Below are positions 36,444 to 64,000 of a stretch of DNA of 64,000 nt, piece after piece. Under the pieces are notes generated by a model. The model made no database searches and had not been told where the DNA came from. It saw only the letters and a program-made list of their open reading frames with translations. Within the stretch, counting starts at the first letter, position 1. Every line of letters begins with the position of its first letter. The position numbers and the translations under genes were made by a program. This stretch comes from Squalus acanthias (taxonomy: Eukaryota): contig JASTWF010000034.1 of the NCBI GenBank assembly GCA_030390025.1, forward strand, positions 5,642,001 to 5,706,000, in the 5' to 3' direction.

Positions 36444-37148
36444 CACATTCACTTTCAATGACACATGTACAAGGACACCCAGGTCCCTTTGTGCATCTGC
36501 GTTCACCAATCTTTCACCATTTAGGAAATACTCTGCCTTTCTGTTTTGTCTACCAAACTGGATAACTTCACATTTATCGACATTATATTCCATCTGCCAT
36601 GTTCACGCCCCTCACTGAGCCCTTTGAGATCCCCTTGAAGTCTCTTCACATCTTCTTCACAACTGACACTGCCACCTAGCTTTGTATCATCAGCAAATTT
36701 GGAAATGTTACATTTAGTCCCCTCATCCAAATCCTTGGTATAGATTGTGAATAGCTGGGGTCCAAGCACCGATCCTTGTGGTACACCACTGGTCACAGCC
36801 TGCCATCCTGAAAAATACCCGTTTTTCCCTACTCTTTGTTTTCTGTCTGTTAACCAATTCTGAAACCATGCTATTATATAACCCCCAATTCAATGTGCCC
36901 TCATTTTGTTCACCAAACTCTTGTGTGGGACCTTATCGAAGGTCTTATGAAAATACAGATACACCACATCCACCGGTTCCCCTTTGTCTACTCCAGTAGT
37001 TACATCCTCAAAGAACTCCAATATGTTTGTCAAACAGGATTTCCCTTTCCTAAATCCATGCTGACTCTGCCCAATCTTACTATTAGTTTCTAAGTGCCCA
37101 GTTATTGCATCCTTTATAATAGATTCCTGCATTTTCCCAACTACTGAT
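36444..37148 (-). mobile_element. CR1 LINE internal RT fragment
   Basis: QHGFRKGKSCLTNILEFFEDVT...FDKVPH; WQAVTSGVPQGSVLGPQLFTIY; FADDTKLGG. Confidence 0.92.
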
Positions 37149-37149: not shown

Positions 37150-37668
37150 GACCTGCCCTAGGAATGTTTCATGGGACATTGTAGAGGGAGCTTTACTCTT
37201 TATCTAACCCGTGCTTTACCTGCCCTGGGAGTGTTCGATGGGACAGTGTAGAAGCAGCTTTACACTGTATCAAACGTGGTCTGAACCTGCCCTGGGAGTG
37301 TTTGATGGGACAGTGTAGAGGCAGCTTTACTTTGCATCTAATAGAAGCTGTACTTGCCCTGGGAGCATTTGATGGGACTTTGTAGAGGGAGCTTTACTCC
37401 GTGTCTAACCTGTGCTGTACCTGCAGTGGGAATGTTTGATGCGACAGTGTAGAGAGAGCTTTACTCTATCTAAAATAACAACAGAAAACGCTGGAAAAAC
37501 TCAGCAGGCCAGGCAGCATCCGTGGAGAGAGAAAGAGAGTTAACGTTTCAGGTCGATGACCTTTACTCTATCTAACCCGTGCTGCACCTGCCCTGAGAGG
37601 GTTTGATGGGACATTGTAGAGGGAGCTTTAATCTCTATCTAACCCGTGCTGTACCTGTCCTGGGAGTG
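37150..37668. repeat. 67-bp minisatellite block containing a short insertion
   Basis: Same unit as at 24440. Confidence 0.85.
37474..37560 (-). mobile_element. 87-bp Penelope-type pLTR remnant (3' half of a hammerhead-like motif) with 15-bp TSD
   Basis: CTTTACTCTATCTAA flanks both sides (37459-37473, 37561-37575). Minus strand reads AGGTCATCGACCT-GAAACGTT (hairpin, GAAA, ACGT). The CTGATGA core is missing. Confidence 0.6.
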
Positions 37669-39213: not shown

Positions 39214-42200
39214 TCAGAGGTTTACTCTGTAACAAACATTGTCTGAACCTGCCCTGGGATTTTTTGATGGGACAGTGTAGAGAGTTTTTCTCTGTATCGA
39301 ACCCCTGCTGACACCAGTACTGAACCCTGGGGAATCGTCCTGTAAACCTCTCTCCAGCACCCCCGTACGGACTCTTGGGGAACTCCACTGTCGATCTACC
39401 TCCAGACCCCAGTACTGAACCCTGGGGAACTCCACGGTATACCTCCCTCTAGCCCGTTGTACTGACCCCTGGGGAACAGCACTGTATACCTCCCTCCAGC
39501 ACCCAGTACTGAAACCTGGAGAACTCCGCTGGAAACCTCTCTCCAGCACTCCCGTACAGACCCTTGGGGAACTCCACTGTCTATCTCCCTCCCGCTCCTG
39601 ATACTGTACCCTGGGGAACTCCACTGTTTACATCCCTCCAGACCCCAGTACGGAACCCTGGGGATTTGCGCAGCATACATTCCCCCAGACAGCCGTACTG
39701 AACCCTGGGGAACTCCACTGTACACCTCCTTCCAGACCCCAGTACTGAACCCTGGGGAACTGCACTGTTTCCATCCCTCCAGCCCCCATTACTGAACCCT
39801 GGGGAACTCCACTGTATACCTCCCTCCAGCCTCCAGTACTGAACCCTGGGGAACTCCACTGTGTAACTCCCTCCAGCACCCAGTACTGAACCCTGGGGAA
39901 CTCCACTGTATACCTGCCTCCAGCCCCTGCTACTGAACCCTGGGGAACTCCACTGTACACCTCCCTCCAGACACCAGTACTGAACACTGGGGAAATCCAC
40001 TGTATACTTCCCGCCAGACCCCAGTACTGAACCCTGGGGAACTCCACTGTACACCTCCCTCCAGACCCCTGTACTGAACCCTGGGGAACTCCACTGTTTA
40101 CCGCCCTCCAGACACCAGTACTGAACCCTGGGGAACTCCACTGTATACCTCCCTCCAGCCCACAGTACAGAACCCTGGGGAACTCCACTGTATACATCGC
40201 TCGAGCCCCCAGTACTGTACTGTGGGGAACACCACTGTACACCTCTCTCCAGACCCCAGTACTGAACCCTGTGGAACAGCACTTTATACCTCCCTCCAGC
40301 CCAAAGTACAGCGTCCTGGGTATGTCCAGTGTTTGCCTACCTCCAGCCCCCTGTTTTACACCCTGGGGAACTCCAATATATAACTCCCATCAGCCCACAA
40401 TACTGAACCCTGGGAAACTCCACTGTATATCCAACTCCAGACCCCAGTACTGAACCCTGGGGAACTCCACTGTATACGTCCACCCAGATCACAGTACTGA
40501 ACCCTGGGTAACTCCACTGTATATCTCCCTCCAGCCCACAGTACTGAACCCTGGGAAACTGCACTGTATACCTCCTTCCAGACTCCAGTGCGTAACCCTG
40601 GGAAACTCCACTGTATACCTCCTTCCAGACCCCAGTACTGAACCCTCGGGATCTCCAAAGTATACCTCCCTCTAGACCCTGCTACAGAACCCTGGGGAAC
40701 TCCAATGGACACCTACCACCAGACACCAGGAATGAATGCTGGGGAACTCCAATGGACACCTCCCACAAGGCACCAGGACTGACCCCTGGGTAACCCCACT
40801 GTATACCTCCCTCCAGCCCCCAGGACTGAACCCTGAGGAAATCCACTGAATAGCTCCCCCCCATCACCAGTACTTAACCCTGGGTATCTCCACTGTAGAG
40901 CTCCCTCCGACCCCCCAGTAATGAACCCTGTGGAACAGCACTGTATATCTCCCCGAAGCACACAGTACTGAACCCTGGGGAAATCCACTGTATACCTCCC
41001 TCCAGCCCCTGCTACTGATCACTGACGAAATCCAGTGTATACTTCCCTCCAGACCACAGTACTGAACCCAGGGGAACTACACTGTATACCTCCCCCCAGT
41101 CACCAGTACTGAACCCTGGGGAACTCCACTGTATACCTCCCTCCAGAAACCCAGTACTGAACCCAGGGGAACTCCAATGTATACCTCCCTCCAGCCCACA
41201 GTACTGAACCCTGGGGAACTCCATTGTATACCTCCCTCCAGCCCACAGTACTGAACCCTGGGGAACTCCATTGTATACCTCCCTCTAGACCCTGCTACTG
41301 AACCCTGGGGAACTCCACTGTATACATCCCTCCATACACCAGGACTGAACCCTGGGGAACGCCACTGTATACCTCCCTCCAGCCCCCAGTACTGAACCCT
41401 GGGGAACTCCACTGTATACCTCCCTCCAGCCCACAGTACTGAACCCTGGGGAACTCCACTGTATACCTCCCTACAGCCCACAGTACTGAACCCTGGGAAA
41501 TTGCACTGTATACCTCCTTCCAGACTCCAGTGCGTAACCCTGGGAAACTCCACTGTATACCTCCTTCCAGACCCCAGTACCGAACCCTCGGGAACTCCAA
41601 AGTATACCTCCCTCTAGACCCTGCTACTGAACCCTGGGGAACTCCAATGGACACCTCCCACCAGACACCAGGAATAAATGCTGGGGAACTCCAATGGACA
41701 CCTCCCACAAGGCACCAGGACTGACCCCTGGGGAACCCCACTGTATACCTCCCTCCAGCCCCCAGTACTGAACCCTGGGGAACTCCACTGTATACCTCCC
41801 TCCAGCCCACAGTACTGAACCCTGGGGAATTCCACTGTATACCTCCCTCCATACACCAGGACTGAACCCTGGGGAGCTCCACTGTATACCTCCCTCCAGC
41901 CCACAGTACTGAACCCTGGGAAACTGCACTGTATACCTCCTTCCAGACTCCAGTGCGTAACCCTGGGAAACTCCACTGTATAACTCCTTCCAGACCCCAG
42001 TACTGATTCCCTCGGGAACTCCAAAGTATACCTCCCTCTACACCCTGCTACTGAACCCTGGGGAACTCCAATGGACGCCTCCCACCAGACACCAGGAATG
42101 AATGCTGGGGAACTCCAATGGACACCTCCCACAAGGCACCAGGACTGACCCCTGGGGAACCCCACTGTATACCTCCCTCCAGCCCCCAGGACTGAACCCT

Positions 42201-45200
42201 GAGGAAATCCACTGAATAGCTCCCCCCCATCACCAGTACTTAACCCTGGGTATCTCCACTGTAGAGCTCCCTCCAACCCCCCAGTAATGAACCCTGTGGA
42301 ACAGCACTGTATATCTCCCTGAATCACACAGTACTGAACCCTGGGGAAATCCACTGTATACCTCCCTCCAGCCCCTGCTACTGATCCCTGACGAAATCCA
42401 GTGTATACCTCCCTCCAGACCACAGTACTGAACCCTGGGGAACTCCACTGTATACCTCCCCCCAGTCACCAGTACTGAACCCTGGGGAACTCCACTGTAT
42501 ACCTCCCTCCAGAAACCCAGTACTGAACCCAGGGGAACTCCACTGTATACCTCCCTCCAGCCCACAGTACTGAACCCTGGGGAACTCCATTGTATACCTC
42601 CCTCCAGCCCACAGTACTGAACCCTGGGGAACTCCATTGTATACCTTCCTCTAGACCCTGCTACTGAACCCTGGGGAACTCCACTGTATACATCACTCCA
42701 TACACCAGGACTGAACCCTGGGGAACGCCACTGTATACCTCCCTCCAGCCCCCAGTACTGAACCCTGGGGAACTCCACTGTATACCTCCCTCCAGCCCAC
42801 AGTACTGAACCCTGGGGAACTCCACTGTATACCTCCCCGCAAGACAACAGTATTGAACCCTGGGGAGCTCCACTGTATACCTCCCTCCAGCCCCCAGTAC
42901 TGAACCCTGGGGAACTCCATTGTATACCTCCCTCCAGCCCCCAGTACTGAACCCTGGGGAACGCCACTGTATACCTCCCTCCAGACACCTGTACTGAACC
43001 CAGGGGAACTCCAGTGTATACCTCCCTCTGGACATCAGTACTGAACCCTGGGGAACTCCATTGTATACCTCCCTCCAGCCCACAGTACTGAACCCTGGGG
43101 AACGCCACTGTATACGTCCCCTCCAGACCCCAGTACTGAACCCTGGGGAACTCCACTGTATACCTCCCTCCAGACCCCAGGACTGAACCCTGGGAAACTC
43201 CACTGCATACCTCTCTTCTGACCCCAGTACTGAACCCTGGGGAACTCCACTGTATCCCTCCCTCCAGACCCCAGTACTGAACCCTGGGGAACTCCACTGT
43301 ATACCTCCCCGCAAGACAACAGTATTGAACCCTGGGGAACTCCACTGTTTCCCTCCCGGCAAGACAACAGTACTGAACCCTGGGGAACTCCACTGTATCC
43401 CTCCCTCCAGACCCCAGTACTGAACCCTGGGGAACTCCACTGTATACCTCCCCGCAAGACAACAGTATTGAACCCTGGGGAACTCCACTGTTTCCCTCCC
43501 GGCAAGACAACAGTATTGAACCCTGGGGAACTCCACTGAATACCTCTCCCCAAGACATCAGTATTGAACCCTGGGGAACTCCACTGTATACCACTCTTCA
43601 GACCCCAGTACTGAACCCTGGGGAACTCCACCGTATACCTCCCTCCAGCCCACAGTACAGAACCCTGGGAAACTCCACTGTATACATCGCTCGAGCCCCC
43701 AGCACTGAAACCATGTTGAACTCCACTGTATACCTCCCTCCAGCTCCCAGTACTGAACGCTGTGGAACTGCACTGTGTACATCCCTGCAGCCCCCAGTAC
43801 AGCGTACTGGGTATGTCCAGTGTTTGCCTACCTCCAGCCCCCTGTTCTACACCCTGGTGAACTCCAAGAGATAACTCCCTACAGCCCACAGTATTGATCG
43901 CTGGGGAACTCCACTGCATACCTCTCCCCAGACCCCAGTACTGAACCCTGGGGAACTCCACTTTATACCTCCCTCCAGCCCCCAGTACTGGACCCTGGGG
44001 AACTGCACTGTATACATGCCCCCAGACTCCAGTAATTTAAACCCTGGGGTACTCCATTGTATACCACCCTCCAGCCCCTGCTACTGAACACTGGAGAACT
44101 CCACTTTATACACCCCTCCAGACCCCAGCACTGAACCATGTGGAAGTCCATTGTATACCTTACCCAGACAACAGTGCTGAATCCTGGGGAACTCCACTGT
44201 ATACCTCCCCCCAGACCCCAGTACTGAACCCTGGGGAACTCCACTGTATACCTCCCTCCAGCCCCCAGTACTGAACCCTGGGGAACTCCACTGTATACCT
44301 CCCTCCAGCCCCCAGCACTGAACCATGTGGAAGTCCATTGTATACCTTACCCAGACAACAGTGCTGAATCCTGGGGAACTCCACTGTATACCTCCCCCCA
44401 GTCACCAGTACTGAACCCTGGGGAACTCCACTGTATACCTCCCTCCAGAAACCCAGAACTGAACCCAGGGGAACTCCACTGTATACCTCCCTCCAGCCCC
44501 CAGTACTGAACCCTGGGGAACTCCACTGTATACCTCCTCCCAGACACCAGTACTGAACCCTGGGGAACTCCACTGTATACCTCCCTCCATACACCAGTAC
44601 TGAACCCTGGGGAACTCCACTGTATACCTCCCTCCAGCCCCCAGTACTGAACCCTGGGGAACTCCATTGTATAGCTCCCTCCAGCCCCCAGTACTGAACC
44701 CTGGGGAATGCCACTGTATACCTCCCTCCAGACACCAGTACTGAACCCAGGGGAACTCCAGTGTATACCTCCCTCTGGACATCAGTACTGAACCCTGGGG
44801 AACTCCACTGTATACCTCCCTCCAGCCCCCAGTACTGGACCCTGGGGAACTCCACTGTATACATGCCCCCAGATTCCAGTAATTTAAACCCTGGGGTACT
44901 CCATTGTATACCACCCTCCAGCCCCTGCTACTGAACACTGGAGAACTCCACTTTATACGCCCCTCCAGCCCCCAGTACTGAACCCTGGGGAACGCCACTG
45001 TATACCTCCCTCCAGACACCAGTACTGAACCCAGGAGAACTCCAGTGTATACCTCCCTCTGCACATCAGTACTGAACCCTGGGGAACTCCACTGTATATC
45101 TCCCTCCAGACCCCAGTACTGAACCCTAGGGAAATCCAATGTATACCTCCCTCCAGACCCCCAGTACTGAACCCTGGGAAACTCCACTGTATACATCCCT

Positions 45201-46984
45201 GCAGCCCACAGTACTGAACCTTGGGGAACTCCACTACATACATCCCCCAGACCCCAGCACTGAACCCTGGGGAACTCCACTGTATACCTCCCACAAGACC
45301 CCAGTACTGAACCCTGGGGAACTCCACTGTATACCTCCCTCCAGACACCAGTACTGAACCCTGGGGACCTCCACTGTATACCTCCCCCCAAGACAACAGC
45401 ATTGAACCCTGGGGAACTCCGCTGTATACCTTCCTCCAGACAACAGTGCTGAACCCTTTGGAACTCCACTGCATACCACTCCCCAAGACACCAGTATTGA
45501 ACCCTGGGGAACTCCACTGCATACCTCTCACCAAGACACCAGTATTGAACCCTGGGGAACTCCACTGTGTACCTCCCCCCAGACACCAGTACTGAACCCT
45601 GGGGAACTCCACCGTACACCTCCCCGCAGACCCCAGTACTGAACCCTGGGGAACTCCACTTTATACCTCCTCCCAGACACCAGTACTGAACCATGGGGAA
45701 ATCCACTGTATATCTCCCTCCAGACCACAGTACTGAATCCTGGGGAACTCCACTGTATACCTCCATCCAGCCCCCAGTACTGAACCCTGGGGAACTCCAC
45801 TGTATATATGCCTCCAGACCCCAGTACTGAACCCTGGGGAACTCCACTGTATACCTCATTCCAGCCCCCAGTACTGAACTCTGGGGAACTCCACTGTATA
45901 CCTCCATCCAGCCCCTAGCACTGAACCCTGAGGCACTCCACTGTAAACTTCCCTCCAGCCCCCAGTGCTGAATCCTGGCGAACTCCACTGTAAAATTCCC
46001 TCCAGCCCCTGCTACTGAACCCTGGCGAACTCCACTGTATACCTCCCTCCAGACCCCAGCACTGAACTCTGGGGAACTCCACTGTATACCTCCATCCAGC
46101 CCCCAGCACTGAATACTGGGGAACTCCACTGTATACCTCCCTCCCTACCCCAGTACTGAACCCTGGGGAACACCAGTGTATACCTCCCTCCAGCCCCCAG
46201 TACTGAACCCTGGGGAACTCCACTGCATACCTCCCTCCAGACCCCGAGTACTGAACTTTGGGGAACTCCAATGTATACCTTCATCCAGCGCCCAGCACTG
46301 AACCCTGGGGAACTCCACTGTATACCTCCCTCCAGACCCCAGTACTGAACCCTGGGGAACTCCACTGTATACCTCCCTCCATACCCCAGTACTGAACCCT
46401 GGGGAACTCCACTGTATACCTCCCTCCAGACCCCAGTACTGAACACTGGGGAACTCCACTGTATACCTCCCTCCAGACCCCAGTACTGAACACTGGGGAA
46501 CTCCACTGTATACCTCCCTCCAGACCCCAGTACTGAACACTGGGGAACTCCACTGTATACCTCCCTGCAGACCCCAGTACTGAACCCTGGGGAACTCCAC
46601 TGTATACCTCCCTCCAGATCCCAGTACTGAACCCTGGGGAACTCCAATGTATACCTCCCCTCAGGCACCAGTAATGAACCCTGGGGAACTCCACTGTACA
46701 CCTCACTCCAGATCCCTGTACTGAACGCTGGGGAACTCCACTTTATACCTCCCTCCAGACCCCAGTACTGAATCCTGGGGAACTCCACAGTACACCTCAC
46801 TCCAGATCCCTGTACTGAACGCTGGGGAAATCCACTGTATACCTCCATCCAGCCCCTGCTACTGAACCCTGTGGAAATATACTGTTACCCTCCCTCAAGA
46901 CACCAGTACTGAACTCTGGGGAAATCCATTGTATACCTCTCTCCAGCCCCCCAGTACTGAACCCTAGGGACCTCCACTGTATAC

Positions 46985-47226
46985 TGTATATTAGTGTGAG
47001 GGGGGGATTAAATATGTGGGGTTATGGGGATAGGATGGGATATGTTAGGGGGAATTAAATACGTGGGGTTACGGGGGTAGGGTGGGATATGTATACTGTG
47101 GGGATTAAAGCAGGGACAGGGTACTGGATTTGAATGATCAGCCATGATCGTATTGAATGGTGGAGCAGGCTCGACGGGCCGAATGGCCTACTCCTGCACC
47201 TAGATTCTATGTTTCTATGTTTCTAT
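46985..47226 (+). mobile_element. CR1-type 3' end insertion in the 47-bp satellite, copy 1 (3 tail units)
   Basis: GATCAGCCATGATCGTATTGAATGGTGGAGCAGGCTCGACGGGCCGAATGGCCTACTCCTGC followed by (TTTCTATG)n. Homologous to the CR1 3' UTR at 29975-30052. Confidence 0.88.
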
Positions 47227-48961
47227 ACCTACCTCCAGCGCCCTGTGCTGTACCCTGGGGAATCGCCCTGTATACCTCCCTCCAGACCCCAGTACTGAAC
47301 CCTGGGGAACTCCACTGTATACCTCCCTCCATACCCCAGTACTGAACCCTGGGGAACTCCACTGTATACCTCATTCCACACCCCAGCACTGAAACCTGGG
47401 GAACTCCACTGTCTACCTCCCTCCAGACACCAGTACTGAACACTGGGGAACTCCACTGTATACCTCATTCCAGCCCCCAGTACTGAACTCTGGGGAACTC
47501 CACTGTATACCTCCATCCAGCCCCTAGCACTGAACCCTGTTGCACTCCACTGTAAACTTCCCTCCAGCCCCCAGTGCTGAATCCTGGCGAACTCCACTGT
47601 AAAATTCCCTCCAGCCCCTGCTACTGAACCCTGGCGAATTCCACTGTATACCTCCCTCCAGACCCCAGCACTGAACCCTGGGGAACTCCACTGTATACCT
47701 CCATCCAGCCCCCAGCACTGAATACTGGGGAACTCCACTGTATACCTGCCTCCAGACCCCATTGGTGAATCCTGGGGAACTCCAATGTATACCTCCATCC
47801 AGCGCCCAGCACTGAACCCTGGGGAACTCCACTGTATACCTCCCTCCCGACCCAGTACTGAACCCTGGGGTACTCCACTGTATACCTCCCTCCATACCCC
47901 AGTACTGAACCCTGGGGAACTCCACTGTATACCTCTCTCCACACCCCAGCACTGAAACTTGGGGAACTCCACTGTCTACCTCCCTCCAGACCCCAGTACT
48001 GAACCCTGGGGAACTCCACTGTATACCTCATTCCAGCCCCCAGTACTGAACTCTGGGGAACTCCACTGTATACCTCCCTCCCTACCCCAGTACTGAACCC
48101 TGGGGAACACCAGTGTATACCTCCCTACAGACACCAGTACTGAACCCTGGGGAACTCCACTGCATACCTCCCTCCAGACCCCGAGTACTGAACTTTGGGG
48201 AACTCCACTTTATACCTCCCTCCAGACCCCAGTACTGAATCCTGGGGAACTCCAATGTATACCTCCATCCAGCGCCCAGCACTGAACCCTGGGGAACTCC
48301 ACTGTATACCTCCCTCCAGACCCCAGGACTGAACCCTGGGGCACTCCACTGTATACCTCACTCCACACCCCAGTACTGAACCCTGGGGAACTCCACTGTC
48401 TACCTCCCTTCAGACCCCAGTACTGAACCCTGGGGAACTCCACTGTACACCTCCCTCCAGACCCCAGTACTGAACACTGGGGAACTCCACTGTATACCTC
48501 CCTGCAGACCCCAGTACTGAACCCTGGGGAACTCCACTGTATACCTCCCTCCAGATCCCAGTACTGAACCCTGGGGAACTCCACTGTATTCCTCCCCTCA
48601 GGCACCAGCACTGAACCCTGGGGAACACCACTGTATACCTCCCTCCAGATCCCAGTACTGAACCCTGGGGAACTCCACTGTCTACCTCCCCCCAGTACTG
48701 AACCCTGGGGAACTCCACTGTATACCTCCCTCCAGACGCCACTACTGAATCCTGGGGAACTCCACTGTACACCTCACTCCAGATCCCTGTACTGAACGCT
48801 GGGGAAATCCACTGTATACCTCCATCCAGCCCCTGCTACTGAACCCTGGGGAAATATACTGTTACCCTCCCTCAAGACACCAGTACTGAACTCTGGGGAA
48901 ATCCATTGTATACCTCTCTCCAGCCCTCCAGTACTGAACCCTGGGGAACTCCACTGTATAC

Positions 48962-49219
48962 TGTATATTAGTGTTAGGTGGGGATTAAATATGTGGGGTT
49001 ATGGGGATATATTGGGATATGTTAGGGGGAATTAAAGACGTGGGGTTACGGGGGTAGGGTGGGATATGTATACTGTGGGGATTAAAGCAGGGACAGGGTA
49101 CTGGATTTGAATGATCAGCCATGATCGTATTGAATGGTGGAGCAGGCTCGACGGGCCGAATGGCCTACTCCTGCTCCTAGATTCTATGTTTCTATGTTTC
49201 TATGTTTCTATGTTTCTAT
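48962..49219 (+). mobile_element. CR1-type 3' end insertion, copy 2 (5 tail units)
   Basis: Same sequence and same insertion point within the monomer as at 46985. Confidence 0.88.
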
Positions 49220-52100
49220 ACCTACCTCCAGCGCCCTGTACTGAACCCTGGGGAATCGCCCTGTATACCTCCCTCCAGACCCCAGTACTGAACCCTGCGG
49301 AACTCCACTGTATGCGTCCCCCCCAGATCCCAGTACTGAACCCTGGGTAACTCCACTATATACCTCCCTCCAGCCCACAATACTGAACCCTGGGAAACTG
49401 CACTGTATACCTCCTTCCAGACTCCAGTGCGTAACCCTGGGAAACTCCACTGTATACCTCCTTCCAAACCCCAGTACTGTACCCTCGGGAACTCCAAAGT
49501 ATACCTCCCTCTAGACCCTGCTACTGAACCCTGGGCAACTTCAATGGACACCTCCCACCAGACACCAGGACTGAACCCTGGGGAACTCCAATGGACACCT
49601 CCCACCAGACACCAGGACTGACCCCTGGGGAACCCCACTGTATACCTCCCTCCAGCCCCCAGGACTGAACCCTGAGGAAATCCACTGAACGCCTCCCTCC
49701 CGTCACCAGTACTGAACCCTGGGGATCTCCACTGTATAGCTCCCTCCAACCCCCCCCCAGTAATGAACCCTGTGGAACAGCACTGTATATCTCCCTGAAG
49801 CACACAGTACTGAACCCTGGGGAAATCCACTGTATACCTCCCTCCAGCCCCTGCTACTGATCCCTGATGAAATCCAGTGTATACCTCCCTCCAGACCCCA
49901 ATACTGAGCCCTGGGGAACTCCACTCTATACCTCCCCCCAGGCACCAGTACTGAACCCTGGCGAACTCCACTGTATACCTCCGTCCAGAAACCCAGTACT
50001 GAACCCTGGGGAACTCCACTGTATACCTCCCTCTAGATCCTGATACTGAACCCTGGGGAACTCCACTGTATGCCTACCCCGAGACCCAAGTACTGAACCC
50101 TGGGGAACTCCACTGTATACCTCCCTCCAGCCCCCAGTACTGATCCCTGGGGAACTCCACTGTATACCTCCCTCCAGACACCAGTACTAAACCCAGGGGA
50201 ACTCCAGTGTATACCTCCCTTCAGACCCCAGTACTGAACCCTGGGGAACTCGACTGTATACATCCCTCCAGCCCCCAGTAATGAACACTGGGGAACTCCA
50301 CTATATACCTCCCTCCAGACCCCAGTACTGAACCCTGGGGAACTCCACTGTATACCTCACTCCAGTTCCCAGTACTGTACCCTAGGGAACTCCACTGTAT
50401 ACCTCCCCCAAGACCCCAGTACTGAACCCTGGGGAACTCCACTGGAAACCGTCCTCCATACACCAGGACTGAACCCTGGGGAACTCCACTGTATACCTCT
50501 CTCCAGCCCCCAGTACTGAACCCTGGGGAACTCCACTGTATACCTCCCTCCAGACACCAGTACTGAACCCAGCGGAACTCCAGTGTATACCTCCCTCTGG
50601 ATATCAGTACTGAACCCTGGGGAACTCCACTGTATACCTCCCTCCAGCCCACAGTACTGAACCCTGGGGAACTCCACTGTATACGTCCCCTCCAGACCCC
50701 AGTACTGAACCCTGGGGAACTCCACTGTATACCTCCCTCCAGACCCCAGTACTGAACCCTGGGGAACTCCACTGTATACCTCCCTCCAGACCCCAGGACT
50801 GAACCCTGGGGAACTCCACTGCATACCTCTCTTCAGACCCCAGTACTGAACCCTGGGGAACTCCACTGTATACCGCCCCCCAAGACAACAGTATTGAACC
50901 CTGGGGAACCCCACTGTTTCCCTCCCCGCAAGACAACAGTATTGATCCCTGTGGAACTCCACTGCATACCTCTCCCCAAGACATCAGTATTGAACCCTGG
51001 GGAACTCCACTGTATACCTCTCTTCAGACCACAGTACTGAACCCTGGGGAACTCCACTGTATACCTCCCTCCAGCCCACAGTACAGAACCCTGGGAAACT
51101 CCACTGTATACATCGCTCGAGTCCCCAGTACTGTATTGTGGGGAACTCCCCTGCACACCTCTCTCCAGCCCTCAGTACTGAAACCATGTTGAACTCCACT
51201 GTATACATCCCTCCAGCTCCCAGTACTGTACGCTGTGGAACTGCACTGTATACTTCCCTGCAACGCCCAGTACAGCGTACTGGGTATGTCAAGTGTTTGC
51301 CTACCTCCAGCCCCCTGTTCTACACCCTGGGGAACTCCAATATATAACTCCCTTCAGCCCACAGAATTGATCGCTGGGGAACTCCACTGTATACCTCTCC
51401 CCAGACCCCAGTACTGAACCCTGGGGAACTCCACTATATACCTCCCTCCAGCCCACAATACTGAACCCTGGGAAACTGCACTGTATACCTCCTTCCAGAC
51501 TCCAGTGCGTAACCCTGGGGAACTCCACTGTATACCTTCCTCCAGCCCCCAGTACTGGACCCTGGGGAACTCCACTGTATACATGCACCCAGACTCCAGT
51601 AATTTAAATCTGGGGAAATCCACTGTATACCTCCCTCCAGACCCCAGTACTGAACCCTGGGGAACACCACTGTATACCTCCATCCAGCACCCAGTACTGA
51701 ACCCTGGGGAAATCCACTGTATACCTCCCTCCAGCCCATAGTACTGAACCCTGGGGAACTCCACTGTATACCTCCAACCAGCCACTGGCACTGAACCCTG
51801 AGGCACTCCACTGTAAACTTCCCTCCAGCCCACAGTATTGAACCCTGGCGAACTCCACTGTAAACTTCCCTCCAGCCCCTGCTACTGAACCCTGGTGAAC
51901 TCCACTGTATACCTCCCTCCAGACCCCAGTACTGAACCCTGGGGAACTCCACTGTATACCTCCCTCCAGCCCCCAGTACTGAACCCTGGGGAACTCCACT
52001 GTGTTCCTCCCCCCAGCCCCCAGTACTGAACCCTGGGGAACTCCAATGTTAACCTCCATCCAGACCCCAGCACTGAACCCTGGGGAACTCCACTGTATAC

Positions 52101-52366
52101 TGTATATTAGTGTTAGGTGGGGATTAAATATGTGGGGTTATGGGGATAGGATGGGATATGTTAGGGGGAATTAAATACGTGGGGTTACGGGGGTAGGGTG
52201 GGATATGTATACTGTGGGGATTAAAGCAGGGACAGGGTACTGGATTTGAATGATCAGCCATGATCGTATTGAATGGTGGAGCAGGCTCGACGGGCCGAAT
52301 GGCCTACTCCTGCTCCTAGATTCTATGTTTCTATGTTTCTATGTTTCTATGTTTCTATGTTTCTAT
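52101..52366 (+). mobile_element. CR1-type 3' end insertion, copy 3 (6 tail units)
   Basis: Same sequence and same insertion point within the monomer as at 46985. Confidence 0.88.
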
Positions 52367-55300
52367 ACCTACCTCCAGCGCCCTGTACTGAACCCTGGGG
52401 AATCGCCCTGTATACCTCCCTCCAGACCCCAGTACTGAACCCTGCGGAACTCCACTGTATGCGTCCCCCCCAGATCCCAGTACTGAACCCTGGGTAACTC
52501 CACTATATACCTCCCTCCAGCCCACAATACTGAACCCTGGGAAACTGCACTGTATACCTCCTTCCAGACTCCAGTGCGTAACCCTGGGAAACTCCACTGT
52601 ATACCTCCTTCCAAACCCCAGTACTGTACCCTCGGGAACTCCAAAGTATACCTCCCTCTAGACCCTGCTACTGAACCCTGGGCAACTTCAATGGACACCT
52701 CCCACCAGACACCAGTACTGAACCCTGGGGAACTCCACTGTATACCTCCCTCCAGACACCAGTACTGAACCCTGGGGAACTCCACTGTATACCTCCCTCC
52801 AGCCCCCAGTACTGAACCCTGGGGAACTCCACTGTATACCTCCCTCCAGACACCAGTACTGAACCCTGGGGAACTCCACTGTATACCTCCCTCCAGACCC
52901 CAGTACTGAACCCTGGGGAACTCCACTGTATACCTCCCTCCAGCACCCAGTACTGAACCCTGGGGAACTCCACTGTATACCTCCCTCCAGCCCCAGTACT
53001 GAACCCTGGGGAACTCCACTGTATACCTCCCTCCAGACCCCAGTACTGAACCCTGGGGAACTCCACTGTATACCTCCCTCCAGACCCAGTACTGAACCCT
53101 GGGGAACTCCACTGTATACCTCCCTCCAGACCCCAGTACTGAACCCTGGGGAACTCCACTGTATACCTCCCTCCAGACCCCAGTACTGAACCCTGGGGAA
53201 CTCCACTGTATGCCTACCCCGAGACCCAAGTACTGAACCCTGGGGAACTCCACTGTATACCTCCCTCCAGCCCCCAGTACTGATCCCTGGGGAACTCCAC
53301 TGTATACCTCCCTCCAGACACCAGTACTAAACCCAGGGGAACTCCAGTGTATACCTCCCTTCAGACCCCAGTACTGAACCCTGGGGAACTCGACTGTATA
53401 CATCCCTCCAGCCCCCAGTAATGAACACTGGGGAACTCCACTATATACCTCCCTCCAGACCCCAGTACTGAACCCTGGGGAACTCCACTGTATACCTCAC
53501 TCCAGTCCCCAGTACTGTACCCTAGGGAACTCCACTGTATACCTCCCCCAAGACCCCAGTACTGAACCCTGGGGAACTCCACTGGAAACCGTCCTCCATA
53601 CACCAGGACTGAACCGTGGGGAACTCCACTGTATACCTCTCTCCAGCCCCCAGTACTGAACCCTGGGGAACTCCACTGTATACCTCCCTCCAGACACCAG
53701 TACTGAACCCAGCGGAACTCCAGTGTATACCTCCCTCTGGATATCAGTACTGAACCCTGGGGAACTCCACTGTATACCTCCCTCCAGCCCACAGTACTGA
53801 ACCCTGGGGAACTCCACTGTATACGTCCCCTCCAGACCCCAGTACTGAACCCTGGGGAACTCCACTGTATACCTCCCTCCAGACCCCAGTACTGAACCCT
53901 GGGGAACTCCACTGTATACCTCCCTCCAAACCCCAGGACTGAACCCTGGGGAACTCCACTGCATACCTCTCTTCAGACCCCAGTACTGAACCCTGGGGAA
54001 CTCCACTGTATACCGCCCCCCAAGACAACAGTATTGAACCCTGGGGAACCCCACTGTTTCCCTCCCCGCAAGACAACAGTATTGATCCCTGGGGAACTCC
54101 ACTGTATACCTCTCTTCAGACCACAGTACTGAACCCTGGGGAACTCCACTGTATACCGCCCTCCAGCCCACAGTACAGAACCCTGGGAAACTCCACTGTA
54201 TACATCGCTCGAGCCCCCAGTACTGTATTGTGGGGAACTCCCCTGCACACCTCTCTCCAGCCCTCAGTACTGAAACCATGTTGAACTCCACTGTATACAT
54301 CCCTCCAGCTCCCAGTACTGTACGCTGTGGAACTGCACTGTATACTTCCCTGCAACGCCCAGTACAGCGTACTGGGTATGTCAAGTGTTTGCCTACCTCC
54401 AGCCCCCTGTTCTACACCCTGGGGAACTCCAATATATAACTCCCTTCAGCCCACAGAATTGATCGCTGGGGAACTCCACTGTATACCTCTCCCCAGACCC
54501 CAGTACTGAACCCTGGGGAACTCCACTATATACCTCCCTCCAGCCCACAATACTGAACCCTGGGAAACTGCACTGTATACCTCCTTCCAGACTCCAGTGC
54601 GTAACCCTGGGGAACTCCACTGTATACCTTCCTCCAGCCCCCCGTACTGGACCCTGGGGAACTCCACTGTATACATGCACCCAGACTCCAGTAATTTAAA
54701 TCTGGGGAAATCCACTGTATCCCTCCCTCCAGACCCCAGTACTGAACCCTGGGGACACCACTGTATACCTCCCTCCAGCCCCCAGTACTGAACCTGGGGA
54801 ACTCCACTGTATACCTCCCTCCAGCCCCTAGTACTGAACCCTGGGGAACTCCACTGTGTACCTCCCACCAGACCCAAGCACTGAACCCTGAGGCACTCCA
54901 CTGTATACCTCCCTCCAGCCACCAGTACTGAACCCTGGCGAACTCCACTGTAAACATCCCTCCAGACCCCTGCTACTGAACCCTGGGAACTCCACTGTAT
55001 ACCTCCCTCAGACCCCAGTACTGAACCTGGGGAACTCCACTGTATACCTCCCTCCAGCCCCCAGTACTGAACACTGGGGAACTCCACTGTGTTCCTCCCC
55101 CAGACCCATACTGAACCCTGGGGAACTCCACTGTTACCTCCCTCCAGACCCCAGTACTGAACCCTGGGAACTCCACTGTCTCCCTCCAGACACCAGTACT
55201 GAACCTGGGGAACTCCACTGTAATACCTCTCTCCAGACCCAGTACTGGAACCCTGGGGAACTCCAGTGTAACCTCCCTCCAGACCCCAGTACTGAACCCT

Positions 55301-58300
55301 GGGGATCTCCACTGTATACCTCCCTCCAGACCCCAGTACTGAACCCTGGGGAACTCCACTGTATACCTCCCTCCAGACCCAGTACTGAACCCTGGGGAAC
55401 TCCACTGTATACCTCCCTCCAGACCCCAGTACTGAATCCTGGGGAACTCCACTGTATACCTCCCTCCAGACCCCAGTACTGAACCCTGGGGAACTCCACT
55501 GTATACCTCCCTCCAGACCCCAGTACTGACCCTGGGGAACTCCAAAGTATACCTCCCTCTAGACCCTGCTACTGAACCCTGGGCAACTTCAATGGACACC
55601 TCCCACCAGACACCAGGACTGAACCCTGGGGAACTCCAATGGACACCTCCCACCAGACACCAGGACTGACCCCTGGGGAACCCCACTGTATACCTCCCTC
55701 CAGCCCCCAGGACTGAACCCTGAGGAAATCCACTGAACGCCTCCCTCCCGTCACCAGTACTGAACCCTGGGGATCTCCACTGTATAGCTCCCTCCAACCC
55801 CCCCAGTAATGAACCCTGTGGAACAGCACTGTATATCTCCCTGAAGCACACAGTACTGAACCCTGGGGAAATCCACTGTATACCTCCCTCCAGCCCCTGC
55901 TACTGATCCCTGACGAAATCCAGTGTATACCTCCCTCCAGACCCCAATACTGAGCCCTGGGGAACTCCACTCTATACCTCACTCCAGTCCCCAGTACTGT
56001 ACCCTAGGGAACTCCACTGTATACCTCCCCCCAGACCCCAGTACTGAACCCTGGGGAACTCCACTGTATACCATCCTCCATACACCAGGACTGAACCCTG
56101 GGGAACTTCACTGTATACCTCCCTCCAGACACCAGTACTGGACCCTGGGGAACTCCACTGTATACATGCACCCAGACTCCAGTAATTTAAATCTGGGGAA
56201 ATCCACTGTATACCTCCCTCCAGACCCCAGTACTGAACCCTGGGGAACACCACTGTATACCTCCATCCAGCACCCAGTACTGAACCCTGGGGAAATCCAC
56301 TGTATACCTCCCTCCAGCCCATAGTACTGAACCCTGGGGAACTCCACTGTATACCTCCCTCCAGCCCATAGCACTGAACCCTGAGGCACTCCACTGTAAA
56401 CTTCCCTCCAGCCCACAGTATTGAACCCTGGCGAACTCCACTGTAAACTTCCCACCAGCCCCTGCTACTGAACCCTGGTGAACTCCACTGTATACCTCCC
56501 TCCAGACCCCAGTACTGAACCCTGGGGAACTCCACTGTATACCTCCCTCCAGCCCCCAGTACTGAACACTGGGGAACTCCACTGTGTTCCTCCCCCAGCC
56601 CCCAGTACTGAACCCTGGGGAACTCCAATGTTAACCTCCATCCAGACCCCAGCACTGTACCCTGGGGAACTTCACTGTATACCTCACTCCATACCCCAGT
56701 ACTGCACCTTGGTGAACTCCACTGTACACCTCCCTCCATACCCCAGTACTGAACCCTGGCGAACTCCACTGTATACCTCACTCCACACCCCAGCACTGAA
56801 CCCTGGGGAACTCCAGTGTCTTCCTACCTCCAGACCCCAGTACTGAACCCTGGGGAACTCCACTGTATACCTCACTCCAGCACCCAGTACTGAACCCTGG
56901 GGAACTCCACTGTATACCTCCCTCCAGACCCCAGTACTGAACCCTGGGGAACTCCACTGTATAACTCCCTGCAGACCCCAGTACTGAACCTCGGGGAACT
57001 CCACTGTATACCTCCCTCCAGACCCCGGTACTGAACCCTGGGGAAATCCAATGTTTACCTCCCTGCATCCCACAGTACTGAACCCTGGGGAACTCCACTG
57101 TATACCTCCCTCCATCCCCCAGTACTGAACCCTGGGGAACTCCACTGTATACCTCCCTCCAGACCCCAGTACTGAACCCTGGAGAATTCCACTGTATACC
57201 TCCCTCCAGCCCCCAGTACTGAACCCTGGGGAACTCCACTGTATACCTCCCTGCAGCCCCCAGTACTGAACCCTGGGGAACTCCACTGCATACCTCCCTC
57301 CAGCGCCCAGTGCTGAACACTGGGGAACTGCACTGTATACGTCCCCCCCACACCCCCAAGTACTGAACCCTGGGGAACTCCACTGTATATCTCCCTCCAG
57401 ACCCCAGTACTGAACTTGGGGAACTCCACTGTATACCTCCCCCCAGAACCCAGTATTGAACCTGGGGAACTCCACTGGAACCCTCCCTCCAGCCCCTGCT
57501 ACTGAACCCTGGGGAACTCCACTGTCTGCCTCCCTCCAGACCCCAGTACTGAACCCTGGGGAACTTCATTGTATACCTCCCCCAGAACCCAGTATTGAAC
57601 CTGGGGAACTCCTCTATACACCTCCACTGCCAGACACCAGTATTGAACCCTGGGGAACTCCACTGTATACCTCCCTCCAGCGCCCAGTACTGAAACCTGG
57701 GGAACTCCACTGTATACCTCCCCCCAAAACAACAGTGCTGAACCCTGTGGAACTCCACTGCATCACTCTCCCCAAGACACCAGTATTGAACCCTGGGGAA
57801 CTCCACTGCATACCTCACCCCAAGACACCAGTATTGAACCCTGGGGAACTCCACTTTGTACCTCCCCCCAGACACCAGTACTGAATCCTGGGATACTCCA
57901 CTGTACACCTCCCCCCTGACCACAGTACTGAACCCTGGGGAACTCCACTGTATACCTCCCCCCAGACCCCAGTACTGAACCCTGGGGAAATCCACTGTAT
58001 ACCTCCATCCAGCCCCCAGTACTGAACCCTGGGGAACTCCACTGTATACCTCCCTCCAGACCCCAGTACTGAACCCTGGGGAACTCCACTGTATACCTCC
58101 CTCCAGCCCCAGTACTGAACCCTGGGGAACTCCACTGTATACCTCCCTCCAGACCCCAGTACTGAACCCTGGGGAACTCCACTGTATACCTCCCTCCAGA
58201 CCCCAGTACTGAACCCTGGGGAACTCCACTGTATACCTCCCTCCAGACCCCAGTACTGAACCCTGGGGAACTCCACTGTATACCTCCCTCCAGACACCAG

Positions 58301-61300
58301 TACTGAACCCTGGGGAACTCCACTGTATACCTCCCTCCAGACCCCAGTACTGAACCCTGGGGAACTCCACTGTATACCTCCCTCCAGACCCCAGTACTGA
58401 ACCCTGGGAACTCACTGTATACCTCCCTCCAGACACCAGTACTGAACCTGGGAACTCCACTGTATACCTCCCCCCAGACCCCAGTACTGAACCTGGGTAA
58501 CTCCACTGTATACCTCCCTCCAGCCCCAGTACTGAACCCTGGGGAACTCCACTGTATACCTCCCTCCAGCCCCAGTACTGAACCCTGGGAACTCCACTGT
58601 ATACCTCCCTCCAGACCCCAGTACTGAACCCTGGGGAACTCCACTGTATACCTCACTCCAGACCCCAGTACTGAACCCTGGGAACTCCACTGTATACCTC
58701 CCTCCAGACCCCAGTACTGAACCCTGGGGAACTCCACTGTATACCTCCTCCAGACCCCAGTACTGAACCCTGGGGAACTCCACTGTATACCTCCCTCCAG
58801 ACACCAGTACTGAACCCTGGGGAACTCCACTGTATACCTCCCTCCAGACCCCAGTACTGAACCCTGGGGAACTCCACTGTATACCTCCCTCCAGACCCCA
58901 GTACTGAACCCTGGGGAACTCCACTGTATACCTCCCTCCAGACCCCAGTACTGAACCCTGGGGAACTCCACTGTATACCTCCCTCCAGCCCCAGTACTGA
59001 ACCCTGGGGAACTCCACTGTATACCTCCCTCCAGACCCATAGCACTGAACCCTGAGGCACTCCACTGTAAACTTCCCTCCAGCCCACAGTATTGAACCCT
59101 GGCGAACTCCACTGTAAACTTCCCACCAGCCCCTGCTACTGAACCCTGGTGAACTCCACTGTATACCTCCCTCCAGACCCCAGTACTGAACCCTGGGGAA
59201 CTCCACTGTATACCTCCCTCCAGCCCCCAGTACTGAACACTGGGGAACTCCACTGTGTTCCTCCCCCCAGCCCCCAGTACTGAACCCTGGGGAACTCCAA
59301 TGTTAACCTCCATCCAGACCCCAGCACTGTACCCTGGGGAACTTCACTGTATACCTCACTCCATACCCCAGTACTGCACCTTGGTGAACTCCACTGTACA
59401 CCTCCCTCCATACCCCAGTACTGAACCCTGGCGAACTCCACTGTATACCTCACTCCACACCCCAGCACTGAACCCTGGGGAACTCCAGTGTCTTCCTACC
59501 TCCAGACCCCAGTACTGAACCCTGGGGAACTCCACTGTATACCTCACTCCAGCACCCAGTACTGAACCCTGGGGAACTCCACTGTATACCTCCCTCCATA
59601 CCCCAGTACTGAACCCTGGGGAACTCCACTGTATAACTCCCTGCAGACCCCAGTGCTGAACCTCGGGGAACTCCACTGTATACCTCCCTCCAGACCCCGG
59701 TACTGAACCCTGGGGAAATCCAATGTTTACCTCCCTGCATCCCACAGTACTGAACCCTGGGGAACTCCACTGTATACCTCCCTCCAGCCCCCAGTACTGA
59801 ACCCTGGGGAACTCCACTGTATACCTCCCTCCAGACCCCAGTACTGAACCCTGGAGAATTCCACTGTATACCTCCCTCCAGCCCCCAGTACTGAACCCTG
59901 GGGAACTCCACTGTATACCTCCCTGCAGCCCCCAGTACTGAACCCTGGGGAACTCCACTGCATACCTCCCTCCAGCGCCCAGTGCTGAACACTGGGGAAC
60001 TGCACTGTATACGTCCCCCCACACCCCCAAGTACTGAACCCTGGGGAACTCCACTGTATACCTCCCTCCAGACCCCAGTACTGAACCCTGGGGAACTCCA
60101 CTGTATACCTCCCTCCAGACCCCAGTACTGAACCCTGGGGAACTCCACTGTATACCTCCCTCCAGACCCCAGTACTGAACCCTGGGGAACTCCACTGTAT
60201 ACCTCCCTCCAGACCCCAGTACTGAACCCTGGGGAACTCCACTGTATACCTCCCTCCAGACCCCAGTACTGAACCCTGGGGAACTCCACTGTATACCTCC
60301 CTCCAGACCCCAGTACTGAACCCTGGGGAACTCCACTGTATACCTCCCTCCAGACCCCAGTACTGAACCCTGGGGAACTCCACTGTATACCTCCCTCCAG
60401 ACCCCAGTACTGAACCCTGGGAACTCCACTGTATACCTCCCTCCAGACCCCAGTACTGAACCCTGGGGAACTCCACTGTATACCTCCCTCCAGACCCCAG
60501 TACTGAACCCTGGGGAACTCCACTGTATACCTCCCTCCAGACACCAGTACTGAATCCTGGGATACTCCACTGTACACCTCCCCCTGACCACAGTACTGAA
60601 CCCTGGGGAACTCCACTGTATACCTCCCCCAGACCCCAGTACTGAACCCTGGGGAAATCCACTGTATACCTCCCTCCAGCCCCAGTACTGAACCCTGGGA
60701 ACTCCACTGTATACCTCCCTCCAGCCCACAGTACTGAACCCTGGGGAACTCCACTGTATACCTCCATCCAGCCCCTAGTCAATGAACCCTGGGGAACTCC
60801 ACTGTATACTCCCTCCAGACCCCAGTACTGAACCCTGGAGAACTCCACTGTAAACCTCCCTCCAGCCCCTGCTACTGAACCCTGGGGAACTCCACTGTAT
60901 ACCTCCCTCCAGACCCCAGTACTGAACCCTGGGGAACTCCACTGTATACCTCCCTCCAGCCCCCAGTACTGAACCCTGGGGAACTCCACTGTATACCTCC
61001 TACCAGCCCCCAGTACTGAACCCTGGGGAACTCCAATGTATACATGCACCCAGACTCCAGTAATTTAAACCCTGGGGAAATCCACTGTATACCTCCCTCT
61101 AGACCCCAGTACTGAACCCTGGGGAACACCACTGTATACCTCCATCCAGCACCCAGTACTGAACCCTGGGGAACTCCACTGTATACCTCCCTCCAGCCCA
61201 TAGTACTGAACCCTGGGAAACTCCACTGTATACCTCCATCCAGCCACTGGCACTGAACCCTGAGGCACTCCACTGTAAACTTCCCTCCAGACCCCAGTAC

Positions 61301-64000
61301 TGAACCCTGGGGAACTCCACTGTATACCTCCCTCCAGCCCCCAGTACTGAACCCTGGGGAATCCACTGTGTTCCTCCCCCAAGCCCCCAGTACTGAACCC
61401 TGGGGAACTCCAATGTTAACCTCCATCCAGACCCCAGCACTGAACCCTGGGGCACTCCACTGTATACCTCCCTCCAGACCCCAGTACTGAAGCCTGGGGA
61501 ACTCCACTGTATACCTCCCTCCATACCACAGTACTGAACCCTGGGGAACACCACTGTATACCTCACTCCAGACCCCAGTACTGAAGCCTGGGGAACTCCA
61601 CTGTATACCTCCCTCGATACCCCAGCACTGCACCCTGGGGAACTCCACTGTATACCTCACTCCATACCCCAGTACTGAACCCTGGTGAACTCCACTGTAC
61701 ACCTCCCTCCATACCCCAGTACTGAACCCTGGGGAACTCCACTGTATACCTCACTCCACACCCCAGCACTGAACCCTGGGGAACTCCAGTGTCTACCTAC
61801 CGCCAGAACCCAGTACTTAACCCTGGGGAACTCCACTGTATACCTCCCTCCATACCCCAGTACTGAACCCTGGGGAACTCCTCTGTATAACTCCCTCCAG
61901 ACCGCAGTGCTGAACCTCGGGGAACTCCACTGTATACCTCCCTCCAGACCCCAGTACTGAACCCTGGGGAAATCCAATGTTTACCTCCCTGCAGCCCACA
62001 GTACTGAACACTGGGGAACTCCACTGTATACCTCCCTCCAGCCCCCAGTACTGAACCCTGGGGAACTCCACTGTATACCTCCCTCCAGCCCCCAGTACTG
62101 AACCCTGGGGAACTCCACTGTATACCTCCCTCAGACCCCAGTACTGAACCCTGGGGAACTCCACTGTTTACCTCCCTCCAGACACAGTACTGAACCCTGG
62201 GGAACTCCACTGTAAACCTCCCTCCAGCCCCCAGTACTGAACCCTGGGCAACTCCACTGTATACCTCCCTCCAGCGCCCAGTACTGAACCCTGGGGAACT
62301 GCACTGTATACCTCCCTCCAGACCCCAGTACTGAACCCTGGGGAACTCCACTGTATACCTCCCTCCAGACCCCAGTACTGAACCTGGGGAACTCCACTGT
62401 AAACCTCCCTCCAGCCCCAGCTACTGAACCCTGGGGAACTCCACTGTCTTCCTCCCTCCAGACCCCAGTACTGAACCCTGGGGAACTCCACTGTATACCT
62501 CCCTCCAGACCCAGTACTGAACCTGGGGAACTCCACTGTATACCTCCCTCCAGCCCCTGCTACTGAACCCTGGGGAACTCCACTGTCTGCCTCCCTCCAG
62601 ACCCCAGTACTGAACCCTGGGGAACTCACTGTATACCTCCCCCCAGACCCCAGTACTGAAACCTGGGGAACTCCACTGTATACCTCCCTCCAGATCCCAG
62701 TACTGAACCCTGGGGAACTCCACTGTATTCCTCCCTCAGGCACCAGCACTGAACCCTGGGGAACACCACTGTATACCTCCCTCCAGATCCCAGTACTGAA
62801 CCCTGGGGAACTCCACTGTCTACCTCCCCCCAGTACTGAACCCTGGGGAACTCCACTGTATACCTCCCTCCAGACGCCACTACTGAATCCTGGGGAACTC
62901 CACTGTACACCTCACTCCAGATCCCTGTACTGAACGCTGGGGAACTCCACTGTCTACCTCCCTCAGACCCCAGTACTGAACCCTGGGGAACTCCACTGTA
63001 CACCTCCCTCCAGACCCCAGTACTGAACACTGGGGAACTCCACTGTATACCTCCCTCAGACCCCAGTACTGAACCCTGGGGAACTCCACTGTATACCTCC
63101 CTCCAGACCCCAGTACTGAACCCTGGGGAACTCCACTGTATACCTCCCTCCAGCACCAGTACTGAACCCTGGGGAACTCCACTGTATACCTCCCTCCAGA
63201 CCCCAGTACTGAACCCTGGGGAACTCCACTGTATACCTCCCTCCAGCCCCAGTACTGAACCCTGGGGAACTCCACTGTATACCTCCCTCCAGACCCCAGT
63301 ACTGAACCCTGGGGAACTCCACTGTATACCTCACTCCAGATCCCAGTACTGAACCTGGGGAACTCCACTGTATACCTCCCTCCAGACCCCAGTACTGAAC
63401 CCTGGGGAACTCCACTGTACACCTCCCTCCAGACCCCAGTACTGAACCCTGGGGAACTCCACTGTATACCTCCCTCCAGACCCCAGTACTGAACCCTGGG
63501 GAACTCCACTGTATACCTCCCTCCAGACCCAGTACTGAACCCTGGGGAACTCCACTGTATACCTCCCTCCAGACCCCAGTACTGAACCCTGGGGAACTCC
63601 ACTGTATACCTCCCTCCAGACCCCAGTACTGAACCCTGGGGAACTCCACTGTATACCTCCCTCCAGACCCCAGTACTGAACCCTGGGGAACTCCACTGTA
63701 TACCTCCCTCCAGACCCCAGTACTGAACCCTGGGGAACTCCACTGTATACCTCCCTCCAGACCCCAGTACTGAACCCTGGGGAACTCCACTGTATACCTC
63801 CCTCCAGACCCCAGTACTGAACCCTGGGGAACTCCACTGTATACCTCCCTCCAGACCCCAGTACTGAACCCTGGGGAACTCCACTGTATACCTCCCTCCA
63901 GACCCCAGTACTGAACCCTGGGGAACTCCACTTTATACCTCCCTCCAGACCCCAGTACTGAACCCTGGGGAACTCCACTGTATACCTCCCTCCAGACCCC

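What the first reader, a model, noticed from the sequence alone, without database searches (positions are those of the whole stretch)
39305..64000. A >24-kb satellite whose 47-bp monomer is the conserved GVPQGSVLG motif of a CR1 reverse transcriptase
Seen: the minus-strand monomer reads tgg agg gag gta tac agt gga gtt ccc cag ggt tca gta ctg ggg = WREVYSGVPQGSVLG. The CR1 fragment in this window at 36761-36805 reads tgg cag gct gtg acc agt ggt gta cca caa gga tcg gtg ctt gga = WQAVTSGVPQGSVLG. That is 12/15 aa identical but only 29/45 nt. Nine of the ten SGVPQGSVLG codons differ only at the third position, a synonymous signature that chance similarity would not give. Established: G(V)PQGSVL(G/S)P is a core motif of non-LTR RTs, upstream of (F/Y)ADD, and transposon-derived satellites are known in general. 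Inference: a 47-bp piece of RT coding sequence from a different CR1 subfamily was amplified into a large satellite. I do not know whether this family has been described.
Basis: partly seen in the sequence, partly recalled or inferred. Interest (0 to 1): 0.85.

Follow-up and report, generated by a model that had tools for sequence, protein, structure and literature searches.

The report
Satellite born from CR1 reverse-transcriptase DNA
A long run of 47-base repeats is a copy of one short stretch of a jumping gene's reverse-transcriptase code, with the broken parent copy still attached to many arrays; repeat DNA arising this way is already known, and this one is likely non-coding.

Summary
Observation and interpretation both hold. 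The donor is not the local fragment but another CR1-type subfamily: one dispersed copy matches 45 contiguous bases of the repeat perfectly; shuffled monomers reach at most 28/45 against other CR1 copies. Beyond the window the array runs in register into about 260 bp of the parent RT sequence. That parent-plus-array junction recurs at 40 or more places on 24 contigs (20 of 20 examined). Five such flanks form one clade inside the donor subfamily. So: one birth, likely by local duplication, then spread with larger duplicated blocks. The synonymous signature is inherited from LINE evolution; inside the array there is no selection on the peptide (0.26 synonymous against 0.252 expected). Public runs of other organisms hold the tandem form. 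Satellites from LINE coding DNA are published, and the scan noted four others in this genome. My searches found no description of this family. New member of a known kind; function unshown.

The parts
39303..64000 (-). 47-bp tandem array (RT sense on the minus strand). It continues beyond the window; its far end, at G000:C2671:5757718-5757978 (L083:7718-7978), joins about 260 bp of the parent CR1 RT sequence in register
   Evidence: 504 gapless monomers, mean identity 0.90 to the commonest copy, 54 of 504 identical to it; parent flank
58152..58292 (-). Three consecutive copies of the commonest monomer, used as reference; 45 nt read WREVYSGVPQGSVLG, 2 nt complete the unit
   Evidence: 45 contiguous nt of the repeat identical to dispersed CR1 copy L051
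46985..47240 (+). Insert 1: truncated retroposon ending in an 8-nt TTCTATGT tail
   Evidence: the element is 95.7% over 230 nt to a dispersed copy in L068 (insert 2 as query)
48962..49233 (+). Insert 2: same element at the same monomer position
52101..52380 (+). Insert 3: same element at the same monomer position; 8 copies in the 118 kb examined, so one insertion multiplied by multi-kb duplication (inferred)
39220..39302 (.). Left border: a degenerate unit of the unrelated 67-bp repeat; no parent CR1 sequence on this side
36761..36805 (-).
   Evidence: 29/45 nt; RVT_1 E 7.8e-08; long branch outside the donor clade
38486..38530 (-). Second local CR1 motif (WKPVSSGVQQGTVLG), in a fragment at about 37695-38973; also not the donor

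Best explanation
The monomer is 47 bases of reverse-transcriptase coding DNA from one CR1-type LINE subfamily, likely first duplicated in place inside a single truncated copy and then amplified as likely non-coding satellite DNA. Steps: (1) shown: a truncated copy of the donor subfamily sits next to degenerate 52-bp satellite units; (2) inferred: a slippage or unequal-exchange event duplicated the stretch from 4 bases before the W codon to the G codon (1 base of microhomology for a 47-bp unit, or 3 bases for a 46-bp unit plus one G); (3) shown: arrays of 8 units upward follow the same parent flank at many places; inferred: unequal exchange changes the unit number and larger block duplications spread flank and array together; (4) shown: monomers mutate with no regard to the reading frame; inferred: the array is neutral heterochromatic DNA, and a T variant at the junction has largely replaced the parent-like G.
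For: 45 contiguous nt identical to L051. 30 dispersed copies found with a monomer-based pattern match 40-44/45 and almost all read on as RT. 30 copies from a peptide-based pattern match a median of 38/45, best 40; 300 shuffles reach at most 28 against them. Five arrays on five contigs begin with about 260 bp of colinear RT sequence. The 431-bp flank is found at 40 of 40 scored places at 95-100% on 24 contigs, 11 on this one; 20 of 20 loci examined have the first monomer at the same offset. Flank-only tree, motif excluded: five flanks are one clade (99/97) inside the donor subfamily (100/98) (58 of 76 rows kept). The parent flank ends in GGGC, which matches the G variant of the junction; G is 10 of 12 in the most divergent array and 178 of 504 in the window. 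Synonymous share of single-base codon changes 0.26 against 0.252 expected (328 distinct monomers). Tandem joints in runs of organisms F, G and J; one G contig crosses flank and array; one J contig crosses the parent's start.
Against: The 30 subfamily copies L041-L070 were picked by a pattern that fixes 35 of the 45 positions, so their high identity is partly circular; the flank tree and L031-L033 are not affected. AU tests on about 260 nt did not reject placing the flanks with the younger subfamily (p 0.057) or with the local fragments (p 0.057 and 0.24), although flank plus donor had 99/100 support there. The parent's downstream side was not found on any array (0 matches; other sequence), so the original unit boundaries are inferred from one side. 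The window's array is separated from the parent-bearing end by a 500-N gap. Neutrality rests on codon statistics only; monomer positions 16-33 vary somewhat less than the rest (0.069 against 0.104, p 0.011 to 0.034, a post hoc choice, related copies not independent).
Confidence: 0.88

Rival explanations
1. Same origin, but the arrays are kept as a source of small RNAs (piRNA or siRNA) against the conserved RT core of CR1 elements.
For: The unit is long enough for a 26-30 nt guide. Its best 26-nt window has 1-4 mismatches (mostly 2) to 30 of 30 copies of the more abundant subfamilies; 5,166 places in the genome match the motif pattern. The motif core varies slightly less than the rest. The tandem form is shared with other organisms.
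Against: The monomer keeps the synonymous states of the older, minor subfamily (copies about 88% alike) and does not track the abundant one (median 38/45). Monomers are 10% diverged on average.
Confidence: 0.06
2. The satellite is centromeric DNA, as for CR1-related repeats at chicken centromeres.
For: Arrays reach tens of kb, with multi-kb duplications. A review table lists CR1-C related satDNAs at chicken Cen2, 3, 4, 7 and 11 (PMC6947457).
Against: Only 1,727 exact junction matches in 3.7 Gb, extrapolating to about 6,600 monomers or 0.3 Mb in the assembly (collapse would hide more). None on C1-C47, which include the 100-266 Mb sequences. Most arrays examined are short and mixed with 52-, 67- and 31-bp repeats.
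Confidence: 0.05
3. The array encodes a repetitive protein, because three monomers form a 47-codon unit with no stop on the RT strand.
For: 13 stop-free frames of 304-624 codons, all on the minus strand.
Against: No synonymous bias in any frame; 252 stops over three frames; frequent 46- and 48-bp units shift frames; no protein hit at E 1e-10 among 8,000 scored candidates.
Confidence: 0.01
4. The peptide match is chance, or the LINE took the sequence from the satellite.
For: None found.
Against: Shuffle controls. The motif is shared by distant CR1 subfamilies that differ at third positions and lies inside Pfam RVT_1, so it is older than the satellite.
Confidence: 0.005

Closest known systems
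Chicken HinfI (SCR1) tandem repeat containing CR1 (Li and Leung 2006; seen only as cited in PMC9659126 and PMC6947457)
   Same: Tandem repeat that holds CR1 ORF2 sequence.
   Different: There the unit holds the CR1 3' UTR plus part of ORF2; here the whole 47-bp unit is internal RT coding DNA and the parent flank survives.
PROsat (Phodopus roborovskii) and Pvc 20 (Phoca vitulina), from LINE-1 ORF2 (table and section 2.2 of PMC9659126)
   Same: Tandem repeat related to LINE ORF2.
   Different: LINE-1, mammals; for PROsat only a small region is 88% similar.
Transposon-derived minisatellites (Alu, B1, LTR; Haber and Louis slippage model, as summarised in PMC6947457; 7,276 human cases cited in PMC9659126)
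   Same: Short unit duplicated inside a transposon copy and then expanded; variable unit number per locus.
   Different: That model expects 5-10 bp flanking repeats; here only 1-3 bp of microhomology is seen, and some arrays reach satellite size.
Other LINE-derived satellites noted by this scan in the same genome (28-bp L2 RT; 49- and 51-bp CR1 ORF2 end; 54-bp CR1 5' UTR, unchecked AI notes)
   Same: Same process, parent often attached.

Membership tests
Transposon-derived satellite DNA | Head-to-tail array of many units | tested here: met
   524 copies in the window; 1,354 in the region
Transposon-derived satellite DNA | Unit homologous to part of a dispersed element beyond chance | tested here: met
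   45 contiguous nt identical to L051; shuffles at most 28/45 against L001-L030
Transposon-derived satellite DNA | Direction: element older than the repeat | tested here: met
   Parent flank in register; flanks nested in the donor subfamily; AU tests of alternatives not significant
Transposon-derived satellite DNA | Heterochromatic location | not testable with these tools
   Only indirect: small contigs rich in other repeats
CR1 LINE (donor) | Reverse-transcriptase domain | tested here: met
   PF00078 in 3 of 3 fragments, two of them donor copies, E 3.6e-07 to 2.7e-10
CR1 LINE (donor) | 3' end with an 8-nt microsatellite (PMC8535693) | tested here: met
   TTCTATGA-type repeats at the 3' end of 2 of 6 copies examined, L071 and L031; the hairpin before it was not folded
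CR1 LINE (donor) | RT groups with named CR1 references in a tree | not testable with these tools
   No Repbase or Dfam library on hand; the name CR1 rests on the tail and on recall
Centromeric satellite | CENP-A binding | not testable with these tools
   Needs ChIP
Centromeric satellite | Large homogeneous arrays on most chromosomes | tested here: not met
   No exact junction on C1-C47; about 0.3 Mb in the assembly; assemblies can collapse centromeres
Protein-coding tandem repeat | Purifying selection on a reading frame | tested here: not met
   Synonymous share 0.26, 0.193, 0.228 against 0.252, 0.222, 0.230 expected in the three frames
piRNA source locus | Piwi-bound 24-32 nt RNAs from the array | not testable with these tools
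   Only contigs were served; no small-RNA reads

The most novel reading that the evidence does not exclude
The array is a thousands-fold amplified guide against the most conserved RT motif of CR1: its transcripts would give small RNAs that hit thousands of CR1 copies of several subfamilies, which would explain its retention across related organisms, and LINE coding DNA would be a recurrent source of such defensive satellites in this lineage.
Probability: 0.06. Interest if true: 0.75.

Novelty: new member of a known kind. Interest (0 to 1): 0.33.

Why it matters
It is a clean, datable record of a satellite's birth: donor subfamily, parent copy, junction, derived variant and spread can all be read. 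The shared flank-array junction could serve as a lineage marker. With the scan's other notes it suggests LINE coding DNA is a routine source of satellites in this genome. Practically, such arrays can be mislabelled as LINE or as long open reading frames. It does not show a new mechanism or function.

Tried and rejected
Selection on the peptide: none. Hairpin as cause or function: the monomer holds a perfect 6-bp inverted repeat, but folding energy is ordinary (z -0.7 to -1.4) and its 3' arm is among the most variable columns. Local fragments as donor: 29/45 and long outside branches. Parent's downstream side: exact pattern search found 0, which does not show absence; the CR1 sequence after the arrays on C295 and C218 belongs to another subfamily (81% to a different element in L006). 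LINE origin of seven other repeat units (38, 30, 85, 67, 31, 52 and a second 31 bp): no match to 258 kb of CR1 loci except one locus for the 38-bp unit; other LINE families were not tested. Expression: no RNA holder listed; X17, X18, X19 and X20 are only guessed to be RNA; X17 shows a DNA-like repeat background and X20 gave one contig of depth 4 over the junction; no evidence either way. Protein search with a 350-codon frame: nothing. Literature: seven searches showed no description of this family in their listings; two shark genome papers read by passages do not mention CR1 or this unit; their supplements were not opened and may list satellite units.

Full report
Observation. TRF finds one array from 39303 to the window end, period 47, 524 copies, 82% matches between neighbours. 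The commonest minus-strand copy reads WREVYSGVPQGSVLG plus two bases. Of 504 gapless monomers, 54 equal the commonest copy and the mean identity is 0.90.

Donor. A pattern back-translated from YSGVPQGSVLGP has 5,166 exact matches in the 3.7-Gb genome, against 0 for the reversed control. The first 30 match the monomer at a median of 38/45. A monomer-based pattern lists 76 dispersed matches on C1-C28 among its first 100 rows; the 30 fetched match 40-44/45 and almost all read on as RT on both sides. These were selected on 35 of the 45 positions, so that identity is partly circular. L051 shares 45 contiguous bases with the repeat; 300 shuffles reach at most 28/45 against L001-L030, where the real monomer reaches 40. 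Three of three fragments hit Pfam RVT_1. Two of six donor copies examined show an 8-nt TTCTATGA-type tail, the CR1 hallmark named in PMC8535693 (passage). Donor copies are about 88% alike, so the subfamily is likely older than the abundant one, which has shorter branches.

Parent copy. The array goes on beyond the window: 1,354 monomers up to position 115,716 in continued window numbering, with a 500-N gap, a second copy of the window's left flank, and a 4.9-kb match at 42-kb offset. At the far end (G000:C2671:5757718-5757978) the first monomer runs in register into about 260 bp of upstream RT sequence, and arrays on C48, C224, C283 and C295 do the same; the other five array starts shown lack this flank (three follow a CR1 insert that splits an array). 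A 431-bp probe of the flank finds 40 of 40 scored places at 95-100%, on 24 contigs, 11 on this one. In 20 of 20 loci examined the array starts at the same offset, with 8 to 31 or more units in 1.5 kb. In a tree of the flank alone (58 of 76 rows; 18 dropped for aligning under 200 nt) the five array flanks are one clade (99/97) inside the donor subfamily (100/98), far from both local fragments. On 33 rows, flank plus donor had 99/100 support, but AU tests did not reject the alternatives (p 0.057, 0.057, 0.24). Just upstream of the parent lie degenerate units of a 52-bp satellite (74% over 127 nt), so the birth likely took place in repeat-rich DNA.

Birth. The parent flank ends in GGGC before the W codon, where 36 of 36 donor copies have A at the third of these places. 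The junction of the G-variant monomer equals the motif's end plus these four bases. G is 10 of 12 in the most divergent array (C295) and 178 of 504 in the window, where T leads with 283. I infer a single local duplication with 1 base of microhomology, or 3 bases and a later extra G; 46-bp spacings exist (35 in the window). The parent's downstream side was not found, so this is read from one side only.

Growth and spread. One truncated retroposon insert occurs 8 times at the same monomer position in 118 kb, and a 2.9-kb CR1 insert is shared by arrays on C2671, C283 and C48 at 93-94%: growth by multi-kb duplication. The exact junction occurs 1,727 times; the first 100 rows lie on C48, C84, C218, C224, C283 and C295, none on C1-C47. 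At the local rate of 0.26 exact junctions per monomer this is about 6,600 monomers or 0.3 Mb, a rough figure for the assembly only.

Other organisms. 20 of 24 listed runs hold at least five of six sampled words; without the 10 flagged as possible sources, six organism labels in six studies remain. Of four runs laid, those of F, G and J show go-back joints and loose ends of the tandem form; a G contig crosses flank and array (17 differences in 140), and a J contig crosses the parent's start (10 in 168). The birth therefore likely predates the split of these organisms, whose relatedness is not given. That the host is a shark is my recall of its repeats and the wording of scan notes, not a test.

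Function. Among 328 distinct monomers the synonymous share is 0.26 against 0.252 expected, and changes fall evenly on codon positions (549, 559, 517). Long stop-free frames (up to 624 codons) follow from a stop-free trimer, and no protein relative was found. The 6-bp inverted repeat gives no unusual folding. Positions 16-33 vary a little less than the rest, a weak post hoc signal. The best reading is neutral satellite DNA (0.88); small-RNA guide (0.06) and centromere (0.05) are untested.

Known cases. PMC9659126 (passages and section 2.2) lists chicken HinfI from CR1 ORF2 and 3' UTR, PROsat and Pvc 20 from LINE-1 ORF2, and concludes that any part of an element can seed a repeat. PMC6947457 (passages) gives the slippage model and lists CR1-related chicken centromere repeats. 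I did not see the primary papers. PMC11406177 and PMC10620051 (passages) report abundant satellites or tandem repeats on shark sex and small chromosomes without naming this unit; supplements were not opened. Seven searches showed no description of this family.

Verdict. Real, correctly interpreted, unusually well documented, but a new member of a known kind. Interest 0.33.

Noticed in passing
window 46985-47240, 48962-49233, 52101-52380; L068:250-700: The insert is the 3' part of a short element whose longer copy in L068 looks like a SINE with a CR1-type tail (SINE label from recall); an apparent 5-bp target duplication flanks it.
   Followed up: partly
window 1-17155, 19635-29966, 35795-37467: Other tandem repeats of 38, 30, 85, 67 and 31 bp fill much of the window; none matched the RT region of the CR1 loci tested.
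   Followed up: partly
L037 (G000:C2671:5716001-5726000) and L036-L040: After a 500-N gap the window's 35.8-39.3 kb flank recurs about 42 kb further on; a real block duplication or a false haplotype duplication.
   Followed up: partly
L083:3016-5950; L080:5436-8350; L077:5723-8641: A 2.9-kb CR1 of another subfamily is inserted in the array at the same place on three contigs; parts match window 29983-32192 at about 90%.
   Followed up: partly
L077, L078, L079, L080, L081, L083-L085: An AT-rich 50-52 bp satellite lies next to the 47-bp arrays on six of seven contigs examined.
   Followed up: no
window 33200-33650 (minus strand): A fragment of another LINE-type RT (DLIKAFD and YADD motifs) unlike the CR1 copies.
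   Followed up: no
L081:5080-5850; L082:3380-4100: Arrays on C295 and C218 end at the same point in the 3' part of a different CR1 subfamily.
   Followed up: partly
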